From a virus: a DNA stretch of 42,857 nt. The notes beneath the pieces are model-generated. The model saw only the letters and a program-made list of their open reading frames with translations. It searched no databases and had not been told where the DNA came from. The DNA lies in the IMG/VR virus record IMGVR_UViG_3300025006_000006, positions 1-42,857 of that record. The stretch is one strand, 5' to 3'. Position numbers and translations under genes: made by a program. This document shows positions 1 through 42,857 of this stretch, in pieces (the stretch's first letter is position 1; every line of letters starts with the position of its first letter).

Positions 1-127
1 CACCGCTACCTGTTGACCCAGCTTCACCGCGATCCGGCGATTGTTGTACACCGCCGAGTCCGACGCCGCGCCCGTGCCCGTGCGCTTCGCCGACTGTGTC
101 GCCGCGTCATAGGCCCAGCCGCCTTCG
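1..127. repeat. Terminal direct repeat copy 1, identical to 42731-42857 (circular-closure overlap)
   Basis: Compared base by base. Both copies begin caccgctacctgttgaccca and end aggcccagccgccttcg. The repeat lies inside one continuous minus-strand reading frame. Confidence 0.95.
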
Positions 128-846
128 TAAGTCCAGCCCGCCGCGCCATCGGCGAACTGCGGGTTGATGACGTTCGGCGTGTTCGCGTTGGCGGTGTTCG
201 CCGTGCCTTGCGCCGCGTCGGCTTTGGCCTTGGCCAGCGCATAAATCTTGTTCAGCAGCGCCTGCCGCGTCGTATAGACGGCCGTCCAGTTGCTGTCCCA
301 GTCGGCGCGCACGAGCGCTGTGGTGCCGGTGACGTTGGTCCAGTTGTAGCCGGCGTCGAGCACGAAGACGTTGTTCTTGAGGTACGTCTTGAGCGCGCTG
401 ACTGCGCTGTCGTAGGCGGTTTTTTCTGTGGTGATCGCGTACGCCGACGCCTGCGCGGCGATGCCGGCTTGCTCGCCGGTGAGGGTCAGGTAGTCCTGCT
501 TCGACAGCACCTTCTCCTGCGCCGTCAGCTTGCCGTCGCTGGCGATGTCGGTGAGCTGGTTGAGCGCGCTGGTGGCGTCGGCTTGGGCGTCACTGGCCGC
601 CGTCGACAGGTCGCTCAGCGTGATGTTGCCAGCCGCCACGTCCGGCACCACGGCGGTGTGAAGCACCCAGGCGGAGGGTGCGCCACACGCGGAAATGTCG
701 CGCACTTCCACGTCGTAGGTCTTGGCGCGGTCCAGGCCCTCAAGCCGCAGTTCGGCGACCGGCGAGCAGGTGGCGATGTCGCTCCACGCGTCGGTGCCGG
801 TGACGCGCCAGCGCACTTCGCGACGGATGGCGGAGGAGTAGGCCAT
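1..846 (-). CDS. N-terminal 282 codons of a 1,026-aa tail fibre / distal host-specificity protein; the ORF continues across the circular junction into 42730->40496
   Basis: The ATG at 846-844 overlaps the stop of the upstream J-like gene (ATGA). I checked every triplet of 1-846 in this frame and found no stop. The frame is continuous with ORF 40496-42781 once 1-127 is overlaid on 42731-42857. It starts MAYSSAIRREVRWRVTGTDAWSD (FN3-like), then DIASDGKLTAQEKVLSKQDY. Confidence 0.8.
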   Translation of the reverse strand, partial: MAYSSAIRREVRWRVTGTDAWSDIATCSPVAELRLEGLDRAKTYDVEVRDISACGAPSAWVLHTAVVPDVAAGNITLSDLSTAASDAQADATSALNQLTDIASDGKLTAQEKVLSKQDYLTLTGEQAGIAAQASAYAITTEKTAYDSAVSALKTYLKNNVFVLDAGYNWTNVTGTTALVRADWDSNWTAVYTTRQALLNKIYALAKAKADAAQGTANTANANTPNVINPQFADGAAGWTYEGGWAYDAATQSAKRTGTGAASDSAVYNNRRIAVKLGQQVAV

Positions 847-3299
847 CAGGCGAGTACCTCGCGGACACCGTGGCGGTTGTAGACAGGCAGGCGATGGATG
901 CCGGGCTTTGGCGTGCCCGATACGCCGGTCACGGCATGGATTACCCCGGCATCGTCCGGGCCGCTGTCGCTGATGCGGATGGTGACCTCCGGTGGTGGTG
1001 GCGCGCTGCACCAGGGCGTGCCGGTGATCGCGCTGACAAAGGTCGGCGGCGTGCCGGTACCGGCGGCGGGCACGTCGGGCGCTTCATCCACCGCCGTGAT
1101 CCGCGCCGACAGATCCTGCTGCGGCTCGATGCGTTGCACGATCAGCCGTTGCGTGACCAGCGTGCGCTCGCCGACCACCACCAGGTCGCCCACATGCACG
1201 CCGGCGGGCAGCGCGCTGGCAAAGGCGAAGGTGGCCACGTCGCCTGCGCCGGTGGTGCTGGTGTTGACCACGGCCTGCACGCCGTCGTCGCTGCGCACTT
1301 GCACGGCGTAGAGCGTGCTGGCCTGCAGGGTGATGGCGCCGTCCAGCGTGATGCTCTTGCGGTCGCCGGCAATGCTCTTGATGCGGGCGGATCCCGCGCC
1401 CCACTCCACCACGTCGTTGGCCGCGGTCACCAGCTGCCCGCGCTGGCACACCAGGTGCTCCATGTCGGCGGTGAGGGTGTAGGTGTTCGCGCGCTGCTCG
1501 CTGGCTTTCAGGTGGTAGGCGCCCAGGCGCCACACCGCCACCGGGTCGGTGCACATGCGCAGGTCCATGACCTCGTAGCGGGTGGCCTTGGTGGTGCCGC
1601 CGGCGCCGTCGGCGCTGTAGCCGTCGGCGTAGACGATCAGCTCGTCCTGCTGGTTGTTGGCCTGCGGGTTGATGAACTGGCAGCGCAGGGCATGCGGCGG
1701 GTCGAAGAACACGCGTTGGCCGCTGAAATCCCAACTGTTGCGCGGGGTGAACATTTGCACCGGCGTGGTCTGCGCCACGTCGCGCACGCAGCCGTATTTG
1801 CCGTTGGGCATGCCGAAGGTGGCGCGGCCGCTGGCCAGCACGTCGCGCAGCAATTCCAGCTGCGTGCGACCGGATTCCTCCATGGCGTTGTAGACGTAGC
1901 CCATGGCCTCGCAGTCGGCGGCCCAGTCGACAATCTCGTCGATGGCCACGCGCGACTCCGGCACCAGGCGCGCCACCAGCTGCGGCGGTGCGGCGGTGAG
2001 CAGCCAGTGATACACCCAGGCGTTGTTGCTGGTGGCCACGCCGGTGGTCCAGGTGCCCGTGCCGGGATCGTAGGTGCGGATCAGCTGCGAGGCCAGCACG
2101 CTGACGGTGCTCACCACGGAGTTGAGCTGGTCGGTGGCGCGGATGCGCAGCGCCAGCTTGGTGGTGCCGGTGGTGCTGGGCAAAGCGCCGCTCAGGCTGC
2201 GCAGCACCGTCCAGGTCATGTCCGCATAGGTCTGGACCGTGGTGCCGTCCCAGGTGGTTCCGGCGCGCGTCACGCGCACCTCGTACTGGCCCGCCGCGGG
2301 CAGCGTCCACCGTACGCCAACGCGCACCGTCTTGCGCACGGCGCTGCTCAGGGTGAAGTTGGTGCCATTGCTGGTGATGCCGCCATAGGACATGGACAGG
2401 CCGCTTGCAGCCGCCGCATTCAGCCACGTCGATGAGCCTACCGCGCGGTATTCGATGGTCATGTTGACGTGACCAGCCACGTCGCGGCCCTTGTTGTCGA
2501 CGCCGAACAGGCCGCTGGGGCACTGCAGATCCAGCGACATCTCGGTGCTGTTGCTTTGCCCGGTGCGCGATGCCGTGGCACCGGAGCCGTTGAGGTTCAC
2601 GGCCACCGCCAGCTCATAGATATCGTTGGTGTACAAGGTCGGCGTCTTGGTCACCTCCCACTGCACGCCTTGATAATCCCCGATCGGCGTCTCGCCGATC
2701 TTGATGTCCGATACGGCCAGATCGCCGGGGCCCAGGTCCAGCAGCATGCGCAGGTACTGATCGTTGCCGACGATCTCGGTGTAGGGCAGCGCGGCATGCG
2801 TGGGGAAAAACCGCACTGTGCCGATCACGCAGGGGATCGGGCTGTAGACCGTAGCGCGGTTCTGCGTGCCGGTGAGCGAGTTGAGCGTGTCGAACGGGTC
2901 GCCGGCGCCGGGCAGTTTGGGCATCGGCGGTGGCACCAGCAGGTTCGTGATGGCGAAGCCATACGCGAGGATCTGCGCGGCGCCCTGGTAGTCGCCGGTG
3001 TAGTGCGCATAGACGATGGCGACGATCACCACCACGATCTTGAGCAGCTTGTTGTTGTTGCCGCCACCCATCGGCACCGCGGTCACCACCAGCTGCTGGC
3101 CCGCCTTGGGTTTCACCTTGGCCCACAGCGTGCGCGGCACCAGCTCGCCGCCCAGCTCCACGCGCAGGCTTTGCGAGGCGCCCTGCCCCAGCAGCTCGGC
3201 AATGGTCTGCCCGGCCGGCGCCTCGGCGTACACCGTGTCGGCGAGCGGGTGGGCGCGGCCGGTGACCGTGACCATGCCCCGGGTGATGCGCTCAGTCAT
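846..3299 (-). CDS. Tail tip / host-specificity protein, lambda gpJ-like with a gpI-like N-terminal segment (817 aa)
   Basis: It follows the NlpC/P60 K-like gene. The N-terminus has a small soluble domain plus a hydrophobic stretch, KLLKIVVVIVAIVYAHY, as in tail assembly protein I. The large remainder fits a J-like tip protein. The ATG at 3299 overlaps the upstream stop. Confidence 0.75.
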   Translation of the reverse strand: MTERITRGMVTVTGRAHPLADTVYAEAPAGQTIAELLGQGASQSLRVELGGELVPRTLWAKVKPKAGQQLVVTAVPMGGGNNNKLLKIVVVIVAIVYAHYTGDYQGAAQILAYGFAITNLLVPPPMPKLPGAGDPFDTLNSLTGTQNRATVYSPIPCVIGTVRFFPTHAALPYTEIVGNDQYLRMLLDLGPGDLAVSDIKIGETPIGDYQGVQWEVTKTPTLYTNDIYELAVAVNLNGSGATASRTGQSNSTEMSLDLQCPSGLFGVDNKGRDVAGHVNMTIEYRAVGSSTWLNAAAASGLSMSYGGITSNGTNFTLSSAVRKTVRVGVRWTLPAAGQYEVRVTRAGTTWDGTTVQTYADMTWTVLRSLSGALPSTTGTTKLALRIRATDQLNSVVSTVSVLASQLIRTYDPGTGTWTTGVATSNNAWVYHWLLTAAPPQLVARLVPESRVAIDEIVDWAADCEAMGYVYNAMEESGRTQLELLRDVLASGRATFGMPNGKYGCVRDVAQTTPVQMFTPRNSWDFSGQRVFFDPPHALRCQFINPQANNQQDELIVYADGYSADGAGGTTKATRYEVMDLRMCTDPVAVWRLGAYHLKASEQRANTYTLTADMEHLVCQRGQLVTAANDVVEWGAGSARIKSIAGDRKSITLDGAITLQASTLYAVQVRSDDGVQAVVNTSTTGAGDVATFAFASALPAGVHVGDLVVVGERTLVTQRLIVQRIEPQQDLSARITAVDEAPDVPAAGTGTPPTFVSAITGTPWCSAPPPPEVTIRISDSGPDDAGVIHAVTGVSGTPKPGIHRLPVYNRHGVREVLA

Positions 3300-37784: not shown

Positions 37785-38096
37785 TCAACGCTCCGCCTTG
37801 GCACACTCCGCCGTCACCGGCACCTTCGCCGCCGTCTGCCACCACCACACCAGGCACTCCATGCGCACGGCGCAGCTTTCGTATGCCGCGCGCCAGGCGC
37901 TGCCGTTCTCCACGATGTCGCGCACCTGCGCGGTGCGGCGCACGGTGGCCGCCGTGCACAACTGCATCAGCGGCGCCGGCGGGGTGAGCAGCTCAATTTT
38001 TGTGCGGGTGGTTACGGTCGGCGCAGGGGCGACCGTCGAGCACGCAGCCAACATCATCAGGCACGGCAAGATCCAGTAGCGATTTGGCTGCAGCAT
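37785..38096 (-). CDS. Outer-membrane spanin (Rz1-like lipoprotein), 103 aa
   Basis: MLQPNRYWILPCLMMLAAC carries the lipobox and is followed by a Pro-rich mature part. Its start lies inside the 3' end of the i-spanin gene. Confidence 0.7.
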   Translation of the reverse strand: MLQPNRYWILPCLMMLAACSTVAPAPTVTTRTKIELLTPPAPLMQLCTAATVRRTAQVRDIVENGSAWRAAYESCAVRMECLVWWWQTAAKVPVTAECAKAER

Positions 38097-38448
38097 TGGT
38101 CCTCTCCAGCTCGGCAAGCTTGGTGCGAATGGCGGCATCCTGCGCGGTGGCATGGCCCAGGCGTTGCTGCAGCCCGTCCAGCGCCTTGCTGTCGGTCTCG
38201 CGCAGGGCTTTGAGCCCGGCGATCGCCGCATCCTGGTCCCGGTTGGCCTGCACCTGCTGGTTGAGCGTGGCGGCCATGCCTCCCAGCTGTCCGCTGAGGT
38301 CGGTGACCGTGCGCGCCAGGCGGTGCCGCTGCAGGGTGCTGCTGACCGCGTAGCCGGCCAGCGCCACCACCAAGGCGATCAGCGCGTACTCGATCCACAG
38401 GCGCGCTCGCGCGCCGACAAAGGCCAGGGCCTTACTGAGTAGGTTCAT
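37993..38448 (-). CDS. Inner-membrane spanin (Rz-like), 151 aa
   Basis: It has an N-terminal TM, WIEYALIALVVALAGYAV, then a coiled-coil. It follows the holin gene. Confidence 0.7.
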   Translation of the reverse strand: MNLLSKALAFVGARARLWIEYALIALVVALAGYAVSSTLQRHRLARTVTDLSGQLGGMAATLNQQVQANRDQDAAIAGLKALRETDSKALDGLQQRLGHATAQDAAIRTKLAELERTNAAAKSLLDLAVPDDVGCVLDGRPCADRNHPHKN

Positions 38449-38791
38449 CGTCGTGACTCCGGTTCAAGCCGAGCTTGTTCCACACGAGCCGTTGCAGTAC
38501 CTGGATGCTGGCCGATGCGCCCAGCCAGCCGCATACGCCCACGGTCACCGCGGTCCATTGCTGGCTCAGGCCCGCGGACTGGCACAGCCACATCGCGAGC
38601 AGGCCGACAAAGCCGGCCGACGAGCCCTCCACCAGCGCCCGCCAGCCGCTCAGGCGCGCCCCGCTGTCCATCGTGCGCATGATGTAGCCCAGCACGCCGG
38701 CCACCGCCGCAAAAAACGAATACGCCGCCGCCTGCAGCCAGCCACCGGCGGCGAGCAACCAGCCACTGAACGGGCCGCCCGGCTCGATCAT
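38432..38791 (-). CDS. Holin, 119 aa, about three TM segments
   Basis: The hydrophobic segments are WLLAAGGWLQAAAYSFFAAVAGVLGYI, FVGLLAMWLC and AVTVGVCGWLGASASI. The C-terminus is charged. It lies between the endolysin and spanin genes. Confidence 0.7.
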   Translation of the reverse strand: MIEPGGPFSGWLLAAGGWLQAAAYSFFAAVAGVLGYIMRTMDSGARLSGWRALVEGSSAGFVGLLAMWLCQSAGLSQQWTAVTVGVCGWLGASASIQVLQRLVWNKLGLNRSHDDEPTQ

Positions 38792-39417
38792 GCGACGGCC
38801 GCCAGGTAGGTCTTGGGCGTGACGACCGGCGCGCGCGGCGCCGAGGCGTGGCCGCCCATGGCCATCACGTAGGCGCGGTCGATCACGCCGGTGTCGTCAT
38901 CCTGCGCGCCGTCCTGCGTGCCCATTACGCGCCGGGTCCAGCCCTTGCCGAAGGTGTCGAACGTGGCCAGGCCGCGCAGGAACTGCAGGCGGGCGTGGCA
39001 CAGCGCGTCGGTGAGCGCGGTGGTCTGGTACTGCGCGTCGTAGCGCGCCACCGCGGCCAGCGTGTAGCGCCCCGCCATGCCATCCTCATCCACACCCACG
39101 ATGCGCTGCAGCGTGCGCACGGCGCGGCCCACGCCGCTATTCACGGCAAAGTCGAACACGGCGTAGTCCACGCCGGCTGGCAGCTCGTCGCCGCGCGTGG
39201 TGTCCCAGTAGCGGTGGCGGTAAATCGCCGCGCGCTCGGCTTCGGTGCTCAGCCGCACGCTCTGCCGCGGCAGGCGCCGTGCTTCGCGGTCCTCGTCGTA
39301 CACGCGCTGGGTAATGCCGCACATGGTGGCGCCACCGGGGTCGCGCGGGTGGTTGCTCCAACCACCCTCGTAGAGCAGGGTGAGGGCCAGGCTGGCAGTG
39401 AAGTTGGCGGCGCTCAT
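38788..39417 (-). CDS. Endolysin, glycoside hydrolase family 108 with a C-terminal peptidoglycan-binding domain, 209 aa
   Basis: YEGGWSNHPRDPGGATMCGIT is the GH108 signature. It is followed by a PG_binding_3-like region. Confidence 0.85.
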   Translation of the reverse strand: MSAANFTASLALTLLYEGGWSNHPRDPGGATMCGITQRVYDEDREARRLPRQSVRLSTEAERAAIYRHRYWDTTRGDELPAGVDYAVFDFAVNSGVGRAVRTLQRIVGVDEDGMAGRYTLAAVARYDAQYQTTALTDALCHARLQFLRGLATFDTFGKGWTRRVMGTQDGAQDDDTGVIDRAYVMAMGGHASAPRAPVVTPKTYLAAVA

Positions 39418-39972: not shown

Positions 39973-40488
39973 TTACAGCCCGAGGGTGGCGAGCTTGGCC
40001 GCCGTGTCGATCTGCGCCTGCAGCGCATTGGCGTAGCCGGCGGCGATGCGGGCCAGCTCGCCCTGCGTGTAGATCCACGCCTGATCGGCGGCGGTGTCGT
40101 AGTAGCCCGTGCCGTAGGCTGGCGTGCCGGTGGGCGCGCCGCTGCCGCTGGTCCAGCCTGCCGGCAGGTTCGCGGCACTGATGGTTTCGCCGCCCTGCGG
40201 CATGTATCGGCACCAGGCGTCGTAGAGGCAGTGCGTGCCGATCATCACGCCGGAGAGCGCAATGCTGTTCGTGCCATCAGTGCCGCTGACCGGCACGGCG
40301 GTGTGCGTGTCGAGCACGGGCACGCCCTGCGCGTCGATCAGCAGCGCCCAGCCGGAGACGACCAGCGTCTGGCCGTCGTTGCTCACCGTCGTCAATGGCA
40401 CGCGGCAGTAGCCGGCGGCGATGGCGAAGTCGAAAACGGGCTTGCCGCTCGGCCGGTTGGGGATGCTGGTGACAGGGGTTGCGCTCAT
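39973..40488 (-). CDS. Tail fibre accessory / assembly protein by position, 171 aa
   Basis: The ATG is at 40488 with a GAGGA RBS. It lies immediately downstream of the tail fibre gene. Confidence 0.5.
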   Translation of the reverse strand: MSATPVTSIPNRPSGKPVFDFAIAAGYCRVPLTTVSNDGQTLVVSGWALLIDAQGVPVLDTHTAVPVSGTDGTNSIALSGVMIGTHCLYDAWCRYMPQGGETISAANLPAGWTSGSGAPTGTPAYGTGYYDTAADQAWIYTQGELARIAAGYANALQAQIDTAAKLATLGL

Positions 40489-40495
40489 GGAGTCC

Positions 40496-42857
40496 TCACT
40501 TGACCGGATTGTGCGAGTAGAAGCGGTTGGCCGGGTCTTCGCCCGCCGCATAGCTGCGGCCGCCGACGTGGATGCGCATCACCGGCTGGATGCCGACGCC
40601 GATCACGTCGACCACGCGCCGCCAGCCGTGATCGGTGAGCACCTCGTGACCGTACATGTCGGCGGCGAACATCGTGGCGCCGTCGCGCAGGTCGAACGGC
40701 GTGTGGATGGAGCACACCAGCGCTGCACCCCCCTCGGCGACGAGGCGCACGCACGGCTCAAACCGCACCCGTGCCGGCCACGACTGCCAGCGACGATAGC
40801 GATGGCCCCGGTGTGCGCAGTCCAGCCGCTGCCACCAGCGCACGTGCTTGGCGCGCAGGCCGGGTTGCAGCCATGAATCCACGTGCACGCAGCCGCCGCC
40901 GCCCGGCAACCCGCCACCGCCGCTGCCGGATGAGGGCACCGTGATGCTGCCGCCGATGTAGGCGTCGTCGAAGCTGTTGGCCGTGGCCGCGCTCTGCGTC
41001 GCCAGCCACGTCGGCGAGCCGCCGGCGTAGTTGTCGCGCGTGTAGATCTGGTAGGTCTGGCCCACGGTCAGGCCAGTTACGGCGTTGCTGACCGCGTTGT
41101 AGTTGATCGCCGCCGGCCCCATCGTCAGCGTGTGCGCCTGCACGTCGACGGCGCCGGCCGAGTAGACGGTCAACGCCGTGACGCTGCGCACGGCACCGTA
41201 GGCGCGAGACAAGCTGCTGGGCGTGTTGCGCTGGTCGCCCAAACGGTGCCCGCTACCTGGCACGCGCAGCCCCACGCGATTCACGCCGCCGCTGACATAC
41301 AGGTCAGCTTGCGCTGCTCGACCGTAGACGCTGCCGTCAGCAACGTCGGTATCGAGCGACGCCGCTTGCACATATTCGATGCTGCCGAGGACTACGTCGT
41401 AGTAGTCTGCCGCCAGCGTCGTAGCGCCGCCCGGGTTCGTGCAATAAGACGTCAGGAAGCAATAGCACGCCACCGCGCCCGTGGGCACCGTGCCTGTCAC
41501 CGTGACGGGTGAGGCAGAAAACACATCAGCATCGAAGATGTGATTCGCCACCCCCGCGCCAGCAGAGTCTCTAAAGCTCAAGTAGACCCGGTGATAGAAC
41601 GTCAGTCCTGCGTTGAGCGAACCGCTCACGCCGGCGCTGCGCCCGATGGCCAATGCATAGGGCTTGCCCGAGAGCACAGCGAACATGTCACTCCGGCAGT
41701 AAGCAGCATTGCCGGTCGTGCCTGCGGGGATCGGGAAGCCGGCGTAGGTGCGCACTCGCATCGATCCGTTGAACGGAATGCAAACCGACAACGGAGACCC
41801 GGCGCCAGCGCTTCCCGCCACGTAAGTCCACCCATCGATGATGGTGCCTGATGTAATGGCCACGCCGTTGGCTACCCCGGCGAAATTCTGGGTGAACGTC
41901 GGGTTGGCGATCGCATTTCGACCCGTGCCCAGTATCGACACCACACCCTGCGCCACCTGGGCCGACTTGACACGGCTGTATCCGCCACCATCGGCGATGT
42001 TTTCGAGCGTGCGGCCGCCGAGTCGCGTGATGGAGTCGGCCGCGAAAACACCATCTGACATCGTTTTGACGGTCGTGCCATTCCAAACTTTGGTCACGCG
42101 CCCGCTGGTGTCGGTGTAGCCCGATCCCACGCGGCGGTAATTGGTCCCGTCCGCTACATCCGCATCGAGGTTGACGCTGTTCTTGCTCGCGAGGGTGCCG
42201 GCGTCGCTGATCGTCGCCAGCGGCTGAGTGCCCGTCGCGTTGGCCCGCGCGAGGAAGTAATCGCCCGTGCGCATGCCGTTGTAGTACAAGCCGATCGGGC
42301 GGTTACTGGTGTCGGTGAAGCTCGCCGCCACGCGGCGGTAATTGAGATCGTCGCCGATGTAGCTCTGGGTCTTGTTGACGTGCCCGGGCTGACTGAAGTC
42401 GATCACGGCCAGCCCGTTGCCGTCGACCTGATGCACGCCGTAGCGACCGCCACCGTCCGGCACTTCGCCCAGGTCGGCCGGCAACAACGACAGCACGAAA
42501 TCATCGGTCGTGTAGCTGCCAGCCGAGTGGTCGAAAACAGCCGCCGCAGCCACCGCATAAACGGCTCCTGCCGGTGCCACGCCGATGGCGCGCGAAAGTG
42601 TTGGCGTAGAGACCGTCCCGGTGATCGTGTTGCCGGGCGTGCTATCTGACACATGCGCACCAGTAACGGTGAAGAAGCGCACCATCGCGCCGGCCACGCC
42701 ATCGGCCCCGGAAGCGGTGAGCATGCACTGCACCGCTACCTGTTGACCCAGCTTCACCGCGATCCGGCGATTGTTGTACACCGCCGAGTCCGACGCCGCG
42801 CCCGTGCCCGTGCGCTTCGCCGACTGTGTCGCCGCGTCATAGGCCCAGCCGCCTTCG
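40496..42857 (-). CDS. C-terminal part (from the junction) of the 1,026-aa tail fibre protein, ending in a Hint-like domain
   Basis: The frame is open to the window end and continuous with 1-846. It has two CBM/galactose-binding-like regions, repeated NYRRV..(Y/F)TDTS(N/G)R motifs, a Gly-rich linker, then the Cys-initiated Hint-like 131 aa. Confidence 0.8.
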   Translation of the reverse strand, partial: EGGWAYDAATQSAKRTGTGAASDSAVYNNRRIAVKLGQQVAVQCMLTASGADGVAGAMVRFFTVTGAHVSDSTPGNTITGTVSTPTLSRAIGVAPAGAVYAVAAAAVFDHSAGSYTTDDFVLSLLPADLGEVPDGGGRYGVHQVDGNGLAVIDFSQPGHVNKTQSYIGDDLNYRRVAASFTDTSNRPIGLYYNGMRTGDYFLARANATGTQPLATISDAGTLASKNSVNLDADVADGTNYRRVGSGYTDTSGRVTKVWNGTTVKTMSDGVFAADSITRLGGRTLENIADGGGYSRVKSAQVAQGVVSILGTGRNAIANPTFTQNFAGVANGVAITSGTIIDGWTYVAGSAGAGSPLSVCIPFNGSMRVRTYAGFPIPAGTTGNAAYCRSDMFAVLSGKPYALAIGRSAGVSGSLNAGLTFYHRVYLSFRDSAGAGVANHIFDADVFSASPVTVTGTVPTGAVACYCFLTSYCTNPGGATTLAADYYDVVLGSIEYVQAASLDTDVADGSVYGRAAQADLYVSGGVNRVGLRVPGSGHRLGDQRNTPSSLSRAYGAVRSVTALTVYSAGAVDVQAHTLTMGPAAINYNAVSNAVTGLTVGQTYQIYTRDNYAGGSPTWLATQSAATANSFDDAYIGGSITVPSSGSGGGGLPGGGGCVHVDSWLQPGLRAKHVRWWQRLDCAHRGHRYRRWQSWPARVRFEPCVRLVAEGGAALVCSIHTPFDLRDGATMFAADMYGHEVLTDHGWRRVVDVIGVGIQPVMRIHVGGRSYAAGEDPANRFYSHNPVK
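42731..42857. repeat. Terminal direct repeat copy 2, identical to 1-127
   Basis: Same 127 nt as the window start. This implies a unit genome length of 42,730 bp. Confidence 0.95.

What the first reader, a model, noticed from the sequence alone, without database searches (positions are those of the whole stretch)
40496..40891. Tail fibre ends in a Hint / intein-like autoprocessing domain
The 1,026-aa fibre ORF ends with a flexible linker, SSGSGGGGLPGGGG. A Cys follows (codon 40891-40889) and then 130 residues with a Hint-domain block pattern. These are CVHVDSW (nucleophilic Cys at +1, block A), LVCSIHTPF (block B-like S/T-x-x-H), and VMRIHVGGRSYAAG....FYSHN (block F/G ending in His-Asn). Only three residues (PVK) follow the HN, so there is no C-extein. 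The expected chemistry is therefore Hedgehog/BIL-type N-terminal cleavage via a thioester, not splicing. That would shed the domain from the mature fibre, analogous to the S74 intramolecular chaperone of other fibres. Alternatively it could leave an activated C-terminus able to be transferred to a nucleophile. To my knowledge Hint domains are established in inteins, Hedgehog proteins and polymorphic toxins, not as a fibre-maturation device. Caveat: the stretch RAKHVRWWQRLDCAHRGHRYRRWQSW is Arg/Trp-rich and could hide a sequencing frameshift.
Basis: partly seen in the sequence, partly recalled or inferred. Interest (0 to 1): 0.72.

Follow-up and report, generated by a model that had tools for sequence, protein, structure and literature searches.

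The report
Self-cleaving Hint cap on phage fibre
The last 131 residues of this phage's 1,026-residue tail fibre fold like an intein (Hint domain) and belong to a large, unnamed family that caps phage fibre proteins, most likely as a self-removing module, though cleavage has not been shown.

Summary
The fibre ORF (minus strand) ends SSGSGGGGLPGGGG-Cys896...His1022-Asn1023-PVK-stop, at the stated coordinates. The window is a circular assembly with a 127-bp end duplication, so the ORF really is 1,026 aa.

No Pfam, NCBIfam or PHROG model hits the domain. However, an AlphaFold model (pLDDT 89.8) matches only Hint folds: mini-inteins at TM 0.75-0.79, then BIL and Hedgehog. A family profile finds only inteins in the PDB (best E = 3.5e-4).

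The domain belongs to at least 1,199 clusters (50% identity). Nearly all share one architecture: Gly-rich linker, Cys-Val start, His-Asn end, then a 3-6 residue tail. Among 50,697 GenBank phage records it occurs in nine, all but one named for Xanthomonas or Stenotrophomonas, always in fibre or baseplate modules.

- The block-B histidine is absent. The family has S-x-x-[T/A]-P there.
- The short tail is not negligible. It is never missing, and it holds a lysine in 152 of 154 domains.

The suspected frameshift is excluded.

Best reading: a BIL-like autoprocessing cap that is shed from the fibre through a Gly|Cys thioester. Ligation chemistry remains possible. It is a new variant of a known kind, and no experiment has tested it.

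The parts
40496..42857 (-). C-terminal 787 codons plus stop of the 1,026-aa tail-fibre ORF (residues 240-1026)
   Evidence: One residue differs from database protein P0008. The same gene is called as 1,026 aa in the independent contig L017.
1..846 (-). N-terminal part of the same fibre ORF. The ATG is at 846-844. Positions 1-127 duplicate 42731-42857 (circular assembly overlap).
   Evidence: overlap, reconstruction. (TGATG stop/start overlap with the J-like gene, GAGG upstream). P0008 residues 77-228 hit tail PHROGs.
40892..40933 (-). Gly-rich linker SSGSGGGGLPGGGG (residues 882-895). Gly895 is the residue before the predicted scissile bond.
   Evidence: Family-wide there is a mean of 6.3 Gly in the 12 residues before Cys1, and the -1 residue is Gly in 78/143.
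40889..40891 (-). Cys896, position 1 of the Hint domain (predicted nucleophile)
   Evidence: Cys in 151/153 family domains, followed by Val in 148/153.
40508..40891 (-). Hint-fold domain, Cys896-Asn1023 (128 aa, 14.7 kDa)
   Evidence: AF2 pLDDT 89.8, pTM 0.86. Foldseek top hits are all inteins, BIL or Hedgehog. PDB profile hits are all inteins. Family of at least 1,199 clusters.
40778..40855 (-). Arg/Trp-rich stretch RAKHVRWWQRLDCAHRGHRYRRWQSW (residues 908-933). It replaces the family's usual G-D hairpin motif.
   Evidence: Not a frameshift. It departs from the family consensus at G29, D30 and V46. It is modelled with pLDDT 80-92.
40697..40711 (-). S-I-H-T-P (residues 956-960), the equivalent of intein block B. 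Ser956 and Pro960 are near-invariant. Thr959 sits where inteins have the catalytic His.
   Evidence: S 149/153; T 92 / A 61; P 150/153. (alignment to SEEH of gp41-1 and TPTH of PhoCDC21-1).
40508..40582 (-). Block F/G equivalent VMRIHVGGRSYAAGEDPANRFYSHN. Arg1001 lies at the position of the intein F-block Asp. It ends in His1022-Asn1023.
   Evidence: V113 146/153, A125 146, G126 150, H136 151, N137 149; position 115 is H 66 / K 26 / R 19. (alignment to gp41-1 ELIDIEVSGNHLF).
40496..40507 (-). C-terminal tail Pro-Val-Lys (residues 1024-1026) and the stop codon
   Evidence: A tail is always present (minimum 3 aa, 107/154 of 10 aa or fewer). Lys occurs within 6 residues of His-Asn in 152/154, although Lys is 2.4% of residues overall. 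The +1 residue is never Cys.
846..3299 (-). Context: central tail fibre / tip attachment protein J-like gene immediately upstream of the fibre
   Evidence: phrog_31 E = 4.2e-88. Pfam FNIII-A_GpJ E = 9.4e-13.
39973..40488 (-). Context: 171-aa ORF starting 7 nt after the fibre stop, function unknown. It is followed by 102-aa and 57-aa ORFs and the lysis cassette (endolysin 38788-39417, holin 38432-38791, spanin 37993-38448).
   Evidence: No Pfam or PHROG hit. No counterpart next to the Hint-ended genes in the other loci compared.

Best explanation
The last 131 residues of the tail fibre are a Hint-fold autoprocessing module. The fibre is encoded directly after the J-like tip protein of a temperate siphovirus. 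The module belongs to a large, uncatalogued family that caps the C-termini of phage fibre and baseplate proteins.

Proposed mechanism:
1. Cys896 attacks the Gly895-Cys896 peptide bond (N-to-S acyl shift) and forms a thioester.
2. His1022-Asn1023 cyclises and cuts off the short Lys-bearing tail.
3. The thioester is resolved, most simply by water. The 14.7-kDa domain is then shed, and a mature fibre of about 92 kDa ends in the Gly-rich tail.

The domain would act as a transient cap, for folding, assembly or quality control. This is analogous in role, but not in fold or chemistry, to the S74 intramolecular chaperone of other fibres.

Shown: the fold, the family, the conserved junction residues and the fibre context. 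Inferred: that cleavage happens, which nucleophile resolves the thioester, and the biological role.
For: Fold and homology:
- AF2 model pLDDT 89.8.
- All 23 Foldseek PDB hits at E <= 1e-3 are inteins, BIL domains or Hedgehog. gp41-1 scores TM 0.75/0.79.
- A family profile hits only inteins in the PDB, 11 of 11 at E <= 1, best 3.5e-4.

Family:
- 1,199 clusters at E <= 1e-3, 962 at E <= 1e-10.

Selection on catalytic positions:
- Cys1 151/153, His 151/153, Asn 149/153, Ser at the block-B Thr position 149/153.
- These residues are kept within the window's own diverged subfamily.

Architecture:
- Gly-rich linker with Gly at -1, as at the Hedgehog G|C site.
- The domain lies at the extreme C-terminus in 107/154 cases.

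Context:
- In the window the gene follows J.
- In LucasX, DLP6, RTH11, PhiXhv-12 and XacN1 the domain ends proteins in fibre or baseplate modules.
- In L007 it ends a 223-aa protein directly after a Peptidase_S74-ended protein in a Mu-like baseplate operon.
- No conserved partner gene accompanies it, so the module is self-contained.

Literature:
- BIL domains predominantly give N- and C-cleavage products (PMC7664689).
- A-type BILs keep a C-terminal His-Asn and sit in variable bacterial proteins (PMC7765530).
Against: - No experiment exists. No virion proteomics was found for any homologue.
- The block-B His is missing (Thr/Ala instead). It is described as catalytically critical for the N-S acyl shift. 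The F-block Asp position holds His, Lys or Arg. Compensation is known in engineered and natural inteins (PMC6333167), but activity here is an assumption.
- The window's subfamily has also lost the family's G-D hairpin motif.
- Simple shedding does not explain why the terminal Asn and a tail lysine are near-universal.
- No Hint-less homologue of the fibre was found, so dispensability after folding is untested.
- No Pfam or NCBIfam Hint model matches.
Confidence: 0.6

Rival explanations
1. Ligation rather than mere shedding. The Gly895 thioester would be resolved by an amine. One candidate is the alpha-amine of Pro1024, freed by Asn cyclisation; I recall this mechanism as proposed for A-type BIL domains. 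The other is the epsilon-amine of the conserved tail Lys or of another virion protein. The mature fibre would then carry the short Lys peptide or an isopeptide cross-link.
For: - The terminal Asn is conserved (149/153). The tail is never absent, and Lys lies within 6 residues in 152/154 against a 2.4% background. The Lys position varies from +1 to +6, as expected for a flexible nucleophile or cargo rather than a fixed active-site residue.
- In tandem-Hint relatives the first domain is followed by exactly K-K-x-G-x-Cys of a second Hint, which lacks the Asn.
- BIL2 of Tetrahymena BUBL is among the structural matches. From memory, such BILs mediate thioester-based conjugation.
Against: - The reviews read here say BIL domains mainly cleave, and that A-type BILs cannot ligate their flanks (PMC7765530, PMC7664689).
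- The tail Lys could equally serve folding, catalysis or protease protection.
- The last residues of the model have low confidence (block mean pLDDT 56).
Confidence: 0.2
2. A permanent, non-cleaving Hint-fold domain serves as the distal knob of the fibre, for receptor binding or trimer stabilisation. The Cys and His-Asn would be kept for structural reasons.
For: - The canonical block-B His and F-block Asp are missing.
- A Hint-like protein without Cys1 or His-Asn is encoded next to the Hint-ended gene in PhiXhv-12. So non-catalytic Hint folds do exist in these modules.
Against: - A binding domain would not hold exactly the first residue (Cys) and the last two (His-Asn) at about 98% across more than 150 clusters that are at most about 50% identical.
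- A flexible poly-Gly tether is an odd mount for a receptor-binding tip.
Confidence: 0.12
3. Artefact or decay: a sequencing frameshift, or a decaying remnant of a mobile intein with no function.
For: The Arg/Trp-rich stretch departs from the family consensus. No Pfam hit.
Against: - The DNA is identical in four independent assemblies.
- GC3 is 0.73-1.0 in this frame throughout.
- The stretch is a conserved subfamily trait.
- The whole domain is modelled at high confidence.
- There is no homing endonuclease, no C-extein and no conserved host-protein insertion site. The family is far too large and constrained for a remnant.
Confidence: 0.02

Closest known systems
A-type bacterial intein-like (BIL) domains (e.g. 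Clostridium thermocellum BIL, PDB 2lwy)
   Same: - Hint fold.
- Cys at position 1 and a conserved C-terminal His-Asn.
- A non-nucleophilic residue after the Asn.
- Residence in variable, non-conserved surface-type proteins.
- Expected N- and C-terminal cleavage rather than canonical splicing (PMC7765530, PMC7664689).
- 2lwy is a structural match (E = 1.4e-4, TM 0.70).
   Different: - No block-B His.
- No sequence-level hit to 2lwy in the PDB profile search.
- Sits at the very C-terminus, followed only by a 3-6 residue Lys tail.
- Preceded by a poly-Gly linker.
- The hosts are phage fibre and baseplate proteins.
Class 1 mini-inteins (cyanophage-like gp41-1 intein, 6qaz/6riz)
   Same: - Best structural match (TM 0.75-0.79).
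- Best profile match (E = 3.5e-4).
- About 130 residues, with Cys1, a Ser at the block-B Thr position, and a terminal T/S-His-Asn.
   Different: - Not inserted in a conserved site of a host protein.
- No real C-extein and no Cys/Ser/Thr at +1 in the window (Pro).
- The block-B His is replaced by Thr/Ala, and the F-block Asp by His, Lys or Arg.
- No Pfam intein model matches.
Hedgehog C-terminal (Hog) Hint domain
   Same: The layout is cargo-Gly|Cys-Hint at the C-terminus of a secreted or exposed protein. Cargo release through a thioester is predicted.
   Different: - No sterol-recognition region follows the Hint (only PVK).
- The intein-type His-Asn is retained.
- The structural match is weaker (TM 0.56-0.59).
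Peptidase S74 intramolecular chaperone domain of endosialidase and other phage fibres (Pfam PF13884)
   Same: It is a C-terminal, self-removing module on phage fibres and spikes (established knowledge). In locus L007 an S74-ended protein and a Hint-ended protein are adjacent genes in one baseplate operon.
   Different: The fold and the chemistry (Ser-Lys dyad) are unrelated. No PF13884 hit here. The chaperone role is proven for S74 and only inferred here.
Pre-toxin HINT (PT-HINT) of polymorphic toxins
   Same: A Hint peptidase placed in a long filamentous or repeat protein to release a part of it (PMC3482391).
   Different: PT-HINT sits just before a C-terminal toxin domain. Here nothing but 3 residues follows, and there is no toxin or immunity gene.

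Membership tests
Hint (Hedgehog/intein) superfamily | Hint beta-fold | tested here: met
   AF2 pLDDT 89.8. All Foldseek PDB hits at E <= 1e-3 are inteins, BIL domains or Hedgehog, with TM up to 0.79. After the family's own members, the BFVD hits that carry a name are mostly intein-containing terminases and proteins named Hint.
Hint (Hedgehog/intein) superfamily | Nucleophile (Cys/Ser) as first residue of the domain | tested here: met
   Cys896. Cys in 151/153 relatives.
Hint (Hedgehog/intein) superfamily | Block B T-x-x-H motif with catalytic His | tested here: not met
   S-I-H-T-P in the window. The family has S-x-x-[T 92 / A 61]-P. Thr/Ala aligns to the His of gp41-1 and PhoCDC21-1.
Hint (Hedgehog/intein) superfamily | Significant match to curated Hint/intein sequence models (Pfam Hint, Hint_2, PT-HINT, Intein_splicing, Vint) | tested here: not met
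   No Pfam hit for the window domain, for 5 phage homologues or for 109 family members. No NCBIfam hit. A family profile does reach intein sequences in the PDB at E = 3.5e-4.
Hint (Hedgehog/intein) superfamily | Autoprocessing activity | not testable with these tools
   Needs expression and mass spectrometry. No proteomic data were found for homologues.
Canonical intein (class 1) | Penultimate His and terminal Asn (block G) | tested here: met
   His1022-Asn1023. H 151/153, N 149/153.
Canonical intein (class 1) | C-extein beginning with Cys/Ser/Thr, and insertion within a host protein that is restored by splicing | tested here: not met
   Only Pro-Val-Lys follows. The +1 residue is never Cys, and is Ser or Thr in 21/154. 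The domain is terminal in 107/154.
A-type BIL domain | Cys1 plus C-terminal His-Asn with a non-nucleophilic flank, in variable non-conserved proteins | tested here: met
   The host proteins have diverse N-terminal parts (fn3, PKD, CBM, collagen, tail-tip). Definition as given in PMC7765530.
A-type BIL domain | A-type-specific sequence motifs or profile | tested here: inconclusive
   No BIL-A profile is available. 2lwy is a fold match (E = 1.4e-4) that ranks below mini-inteins, and it is absent from the sequence-profile hits.
Hedgehog Hog domain | Sterol-recognition region after the Hint module | tested here: not met
   The protein ends 3 residues after the Hint domain.
Peptidase S74 intramolecular chaperone | PF13884 domain | tested here: not met
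   No Pfam hit, and the fold is Hint.

The most novel reading that the evidence does not exclude
The domain is not a disposable cap but an enzyme-free protein ligase built into the fibre. The Gly895 thioester would be passed to the near-universal lysine of the short tail, to another virion protein, or even to a nucleophile on the host surface. The result would be a covalent (iso)peptide link during virion assembly or adsorption. The remodelled active site would be tuned for aminolysis rather than hydrolysis: no block-B His, and a basic residue at the F-block Asp position.
Probability: 0.15. Interest if true: 0.85.

Novelty: new variant of a known kind. Interest (0 to 1): 0.64.

Why it matters
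If the domain is active, phage receptor-binding proteins have a second, chemically different self-removing C-terminal module besides the S74 chaperone. It would be present in more than a thousand sequence clusters, yet it is invisible to Pfam, NCBIfam and PHROGs.

- For phage biology, it changes what the mature fibre tip is: a Gly-rich tail rather than the encoded C-terminus. That matters for receptor-binding-protein engineering and host-range prediction.
- For intein chemistry, it offers a compact (128-aa) natural Hint that lacks the canonical block-B His, carries a conserved Lys tail, and produces a C-terminal Gly thioester. It is a candidate self-cleaving tag or ligation tool.
- It also tests how the N-S acyl shift can be catalysed without that histidine.

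Tried and rejected
- Single-sequence word-indexed homology search found nothing. The family appeared only through tblastn against phages and profile searches.
- Circular wrap at the raw window ends gave a stop codon. This was resolved by finding the 127-bp end duplication.
- megablast of the fibre region against phages found no match.
- A genome-contig scan with the fibre found no relative, so the host is not identified directly. A Rhodanobacteraceae MAG protein (P0163) and the Xanthomonas and Stenotrophomonas phage homologues suggest Xanthomonadales.
- A search for Hint-less homologues of the distal fibre, to test module swapping with S74, returned only four relatives, all Hint-ended.
- The AF2 model of the 210 residues upstream of the Hint was useless (pLDDT 33.8), so the fold of the mature tip is unknown.
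- No conserved downstream partner or chaperone gene was found.
- Ten literature searches found Hint domains in phages only as inteins in terminase, helicase, RNR, dCTP deaminase and similar genes. None was at a fibre terminus. One search failed on syntax.
- The frameshift hypothesis was rejected.
- The class 3 intein reading was rejected. Class 3 inteins are among the structural hits, but they lack Cys1 and use a block-F Cys. Here Cys1 is invariant and the F:4 position is His, Lys or Arg.
Full report
**What is there**

On the minus strand an ORF ends ...YIGGSITVPSSGSGGGGLPGGGG-CVHVDSWL...RFYSHN-PVK-stop. The Cys codon is at 40891-40889 and the stop at 40498-40496, exactly as reported.

The ORF runs off the window end after 787 codons. 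However, positions 1-127 of the window are identical to 42731-42857. The window is therefore a circular assembly of a 42,730-bp unit with the usual 127-bp overlap. It differs at one residue from database protein P0008.

Its ATG shares a base with the TGA of the upstream gene, and a GAGG lies about 10 nt before it.

**Context**

- The upstream gene is a J-like central tail fibre / tip attachment protein (phrog_31 E = 4e-88; Pfam FNIII-A_GpJ).
- Before it come a tape-measure gene, a minor tail gene, and portal and head genes.
- Downstream lie three small ORFs of unknown function and a lysis cassette: a GH108 endolysin, a holin and an Rz-like spanin.
- A serine recombinase is also present.

The element is a complete temperate siphovirus genome, and 'tail fibre' is a fair name for the ORF. 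The ORF itself has no Pfam hit and only weak PHROG tail hits in its N-terminal quarter.

**Is the sequence sound?**

It does not.

- The last 438 nt are identical in four independent metagenome assemblies from different projects.
- GC3 stays at 0.73-1.0 in this frame across the domain.
- Diverged relatives carry an R/W-rich stretch at the same place: RWWHWLDC in P0077, RWWHWISC in P0089, and other R/W-rich variants in P0163 and P0164. Their flanks align without gaps.

**Is it a Hint domain?**

Curated models say nothing:

- Pfam at E <= 10 gave no hit on the window domain or on five phage homologues. Pfam at E <= 0.01 gave no Hint-type hit on 109 family members.
- NCBIfam gave no hit.
- PHROGs gave no hit.

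Structure and profile evidence is nevertheless clear:

- An AlphaFold2 model of Gly893-Lys1026, built on a seven-sequence alignment, has mean pLDDT 89.8 and pTM 0.86 and is all-beta.
- Against the PDB, every match at E <= 1e-3 is a Hint protein:

| Match | E-value | TM |
|---|---|---|
| gp41-1 intein | 7.8e-6 | 0.75/0.79 |
| MchDnaB-1 and Msm class 3 DnaB inteins | 1.3e-5 to 1.3e-4 | 0.72-0.77 |
| C. thermocellum BIL (2lwy) | 1.4e-4 | 0.70/0.69 |
| Tetrahymena BIL2 (6y75, 6tmm) | 3.9e-4 to 7.8e-4 | 0.58-0.69 |
| Hedgehog (6tyy); 1at0 follows at E = 1.0e-3 | 4.1e-4 | 0.56/0.52 |

- A 40-sequence family profile searched against all PDB sequences returns 11 hits at E <= 1, all inteins, with gp41-1 best at 3.5e-4 (the smaller profile is).

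I consider the Hint fold and remote homology to inteins established.

**The family**

tblastn against 50,697 GenBank phage records finds the domain in only nine. Eight are named for Xanthomonas or Stenotrophomonas: LucasX, DLP6, PhiXhv-12/15/16, Ep026, XacN1 and RTH11. The ninth is an unverified 'Erwinia' record, Ep032, which shows the same two matches at corresponding positions as Ep026.

In each record the domain ends a protein in a fibre or baseplate module:

- next to 'similar to tail fiber' genes in LucasX;
- at the end of a 'VlrC' protein in DLP6;
- after a 'tail fiber domain-containing protein' and before a 'tail assembly chaperone' in RTH11;
- among baseplate genes for a second copy in PhiXhv-12.

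A profile search of 1.84 billion representative proteins finds 1,199 clusters at E <= 1e-3 and 962 at E <= 1e-10. None of those looked up carries a name other than 'hypothetical protein'. Nine IMG/VR viral contigs show the same architecture.

In a Mu-like prophage locus (L007) a 223-aa Hint-ended protein directly follows a 230-aa protein that ends in a Peptidase_S74 domain.

The N-terminal parts of family members are heterogeneous: fn3, PKD, CBM, collagen, Phage_Tail_Tip and Gp53-like_C.

**Family anatomy (153 domains)**

- A Gly-rich linker: a mean of 6.3 Gly in the 12 preceding residues, with Gly at -1 in 78/143.
- Cys1 in 151/153 and Val2 in 148/153.
- An S-x-x-[T/A]-P motif: Ser 149, Thr 92 / Ala 61, Pro 150.
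- Conserved Trp, Gly and Val positions.
- A-G (146 and 150), then [T/H/S]-His-Asn (His 151, Asn 149).

First, the canonical block-B His is absent. HMMER aligns the family's S-x-x-T to S-E-E-H of gp41-1 and to T-P-T-H of PhoCDC21-1. The window's His958 is one position off and is conserved in only 5/153. The F-block Asp position (gp41-1 'LIDIEV') holds His 66 / Lys 26 / Arg 19, and is Arg1001 in the window. The active site is therefore remodelled. A basic residue at F:4 may stand in for the missing His, but this is inference.

Second, the tail after His-Asn is not negligible.

- No domain ends at the Asn. The minimum tail is 3 residues, and 107/154 tails are 10 residues or fewer.
- A Lys lies within six residues in 152/154, although Lys makes up 2.4% of these proteins. 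About 14% would be expected by chance.
- Forty-six short tails end in K-P.
- The +1 residue is never Cys.

There are three sub-types:

- T/S-H-N with short tails. This is the phage-fibre type and includes the window.
- H-H-N-[LMK]-K with longer Gly/Asp/Trp-rich tails.
- Tandem pairs, H-H-N-K-K-x-G-x-Cys-Hint2, in which the second domain usually lacks the Asn and ends the protein.

**How it most likely works**

Near-absolute conservation of exactly the first residue and the last two residues of the domain is hard to explain except by catalysis at both junctions. This conservation holds across clusters that share at most about 50% identity, and within the window's own subfamily.

The arrangement cargo-Gly|Cys-Hint is that of Hedgehog. 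The combination of Cys1, His-Asn, a non-nucleophilic flank and a variable surface protein is that of A-type BIL domains. These are reported to give mainly N- and C-cleavage products (PMC7765530, PMC7664689).

My best explanation (confidence about 0.6) is as follows:

1. Cys896 forms a thioester with Gly895.
2. Asn1023 cyclises and releases PVK.
3. The thioester is hydrolysed.
4. A 14.7-kDa domain is shed from a 91.9-kDa mature fibre (masses).

The domain would serve as a transient cap during folding or assembly. In role this parallels the S74 chaperone, which sits on the neighbouring gene in L007.

Against this: the missing block-B His, the complete lack of experimental data, and the unexplained conservation of the Asn and the tail Lys. 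Compensation for the missing His has precedent (PMC6333167).

**Rivals**

- (a) Ligation (0.2). An amine resolves the thioester: either the new alpha-amine of the tail after Asn cyclisation, or the conserved Lys. The fibre would then end in a short Lys peptide or in an isopeptide link. The Lys statistics and the tandem architecture favour this. The reviews' statements that BILs mainly cleave, and that A-type BILs do not ligate, count against it.
- (b) A permanent non-catalytic knob (0.12). A Cys-less, Asn-less Hint-like gene next to the PhiXhv-12 Hint-ended gene shows that such proteins exist. The conservation pattern of the terminal residues argues against it here.
- (c) Artefact or decaying intein (0.02). 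This is contradicted.

**Comparison with known families, and novelty**

The domain is a member of the Hint superfamily by fold. It fails two sequence criteria: the T-x-x-H motif and the curated profiles. It is not a canonical intein, because it has no C-extein and no +1 nucleophile. It is not a Hog domain, because it has no sterol-recognition region. It is not PT-HINT, because no toxin follows. It is closest in logic to A-type BIL domains.

Ten full-text searches found Hint domains in phages only as inteins in replication and packaging genes. None was at a fibre terminus. Older BIL surveys in subscription journals could not be read, so prior mention cannot be excluded.

I rate it a new variant of a known kind. 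It is a large, uncatalogued Hint family with a remodelled active site, a conserved Lys tail and a new biological setting.

**Limits**

- Only the best 150 of the 1,199 clusters could be inspected.
- Model coordinates could not be examined.
- The fold of the mature fibre tip could not be modelled (pLDDT 33.8).
- The host was not identified beyond a likely Xanthomonadales affiliation.

Noticed in passing
window 1-127 and 42731-42857: The two ends of the window are an exact 127-bp duplicate. The window is therefore a complete circular assembly of a 42,730-bp temperate siphovirus genome, and genes crossing the junction (the fibre) look truncated.
   Followed up: yes
family members P0007, P0015, P0017, P0018, P0029, P0038, P0041, P0058, P0082, P0145: Tandem double-Hint architecture. 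The first domain ends H-H-N or S-H-N and is followed, in most pairs, by K-K-x-G-x and then the Cys of a second Hint. In seven of the ten pairs (P0015, P0017, P0018, P0029, P0041, P0058, P0145) the second Hint lacks the terminal Asn and ends the protein (HHD, HHS, HCG, HIG, HE). In P0007 the second Hint keeps H-H-N; in P0038 and P0082 it matches only partly.
   Followed up: partly
family-wide; window 40499-40507: A lysine lies within 6 residues after the His-Asn in 152 of 154 domains, against 2.4% Lys overall. Many proteins end in K-P. The tail is never absent. Its function is unknown.
   Followed up: partly
L003 3303-3722 (Xanthomonas phage PhiXhv-12): The gene that starts at the stop of the Hint-ended gene encodes a 139-aa stand-alone Hint-like protein (E = 1.5e-11 to the family profile). 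It lacks both the N-terminal Cys and the His-Asn.
   Followed up: partly
L007 5710-7073: In a Mu-like baseplate operon, a 230-aa protein ending in a Peptidase_S74 domain is directly followed by the 223-aa Hint-ended protein P0001. Two different self-processing C-terminal modules sit side by side.
   Followed up: partly
L024 1215-1646 (Stenotrophomonas phage DLP6, left genome end): A second copy of the Hint domain lies in a stretch with no annotated gene, upstream of AAY80_001. It is probably a missed or split ORF.
   Followed up: no
L014, C-terminal extension after HHNMK: One viral-contig member carries a longer tail after the Hint domain, with the motif GGYISGPGTGTSDSIPAKLSNGEFVIPAAIV. I could not place it.
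   Followed up: no
window 37785-38448, minus strand: The 148-aa ORF at 37785-38231 overlaps the Rz-like spanin gene (37993-38448) in another frame. It contains a lipobox-like LAACS, which suggests an overlapping Rz1-type o-spanin.
   Followed up: no
window 40892-41300 and relatives P0009, P0163-P0165; 36 of 143 family members: The stretch just before the Gly linker is itself conserved in the subfamily (...YTRDNYAGGSPTW...SFDDAYIGGSITVPSSG...). A P-[TSA]-x-G-[TS] motif precedes the linker in a quarter of the family, so part of the N-flank may travel with the Hint module.
   Followed up: partly
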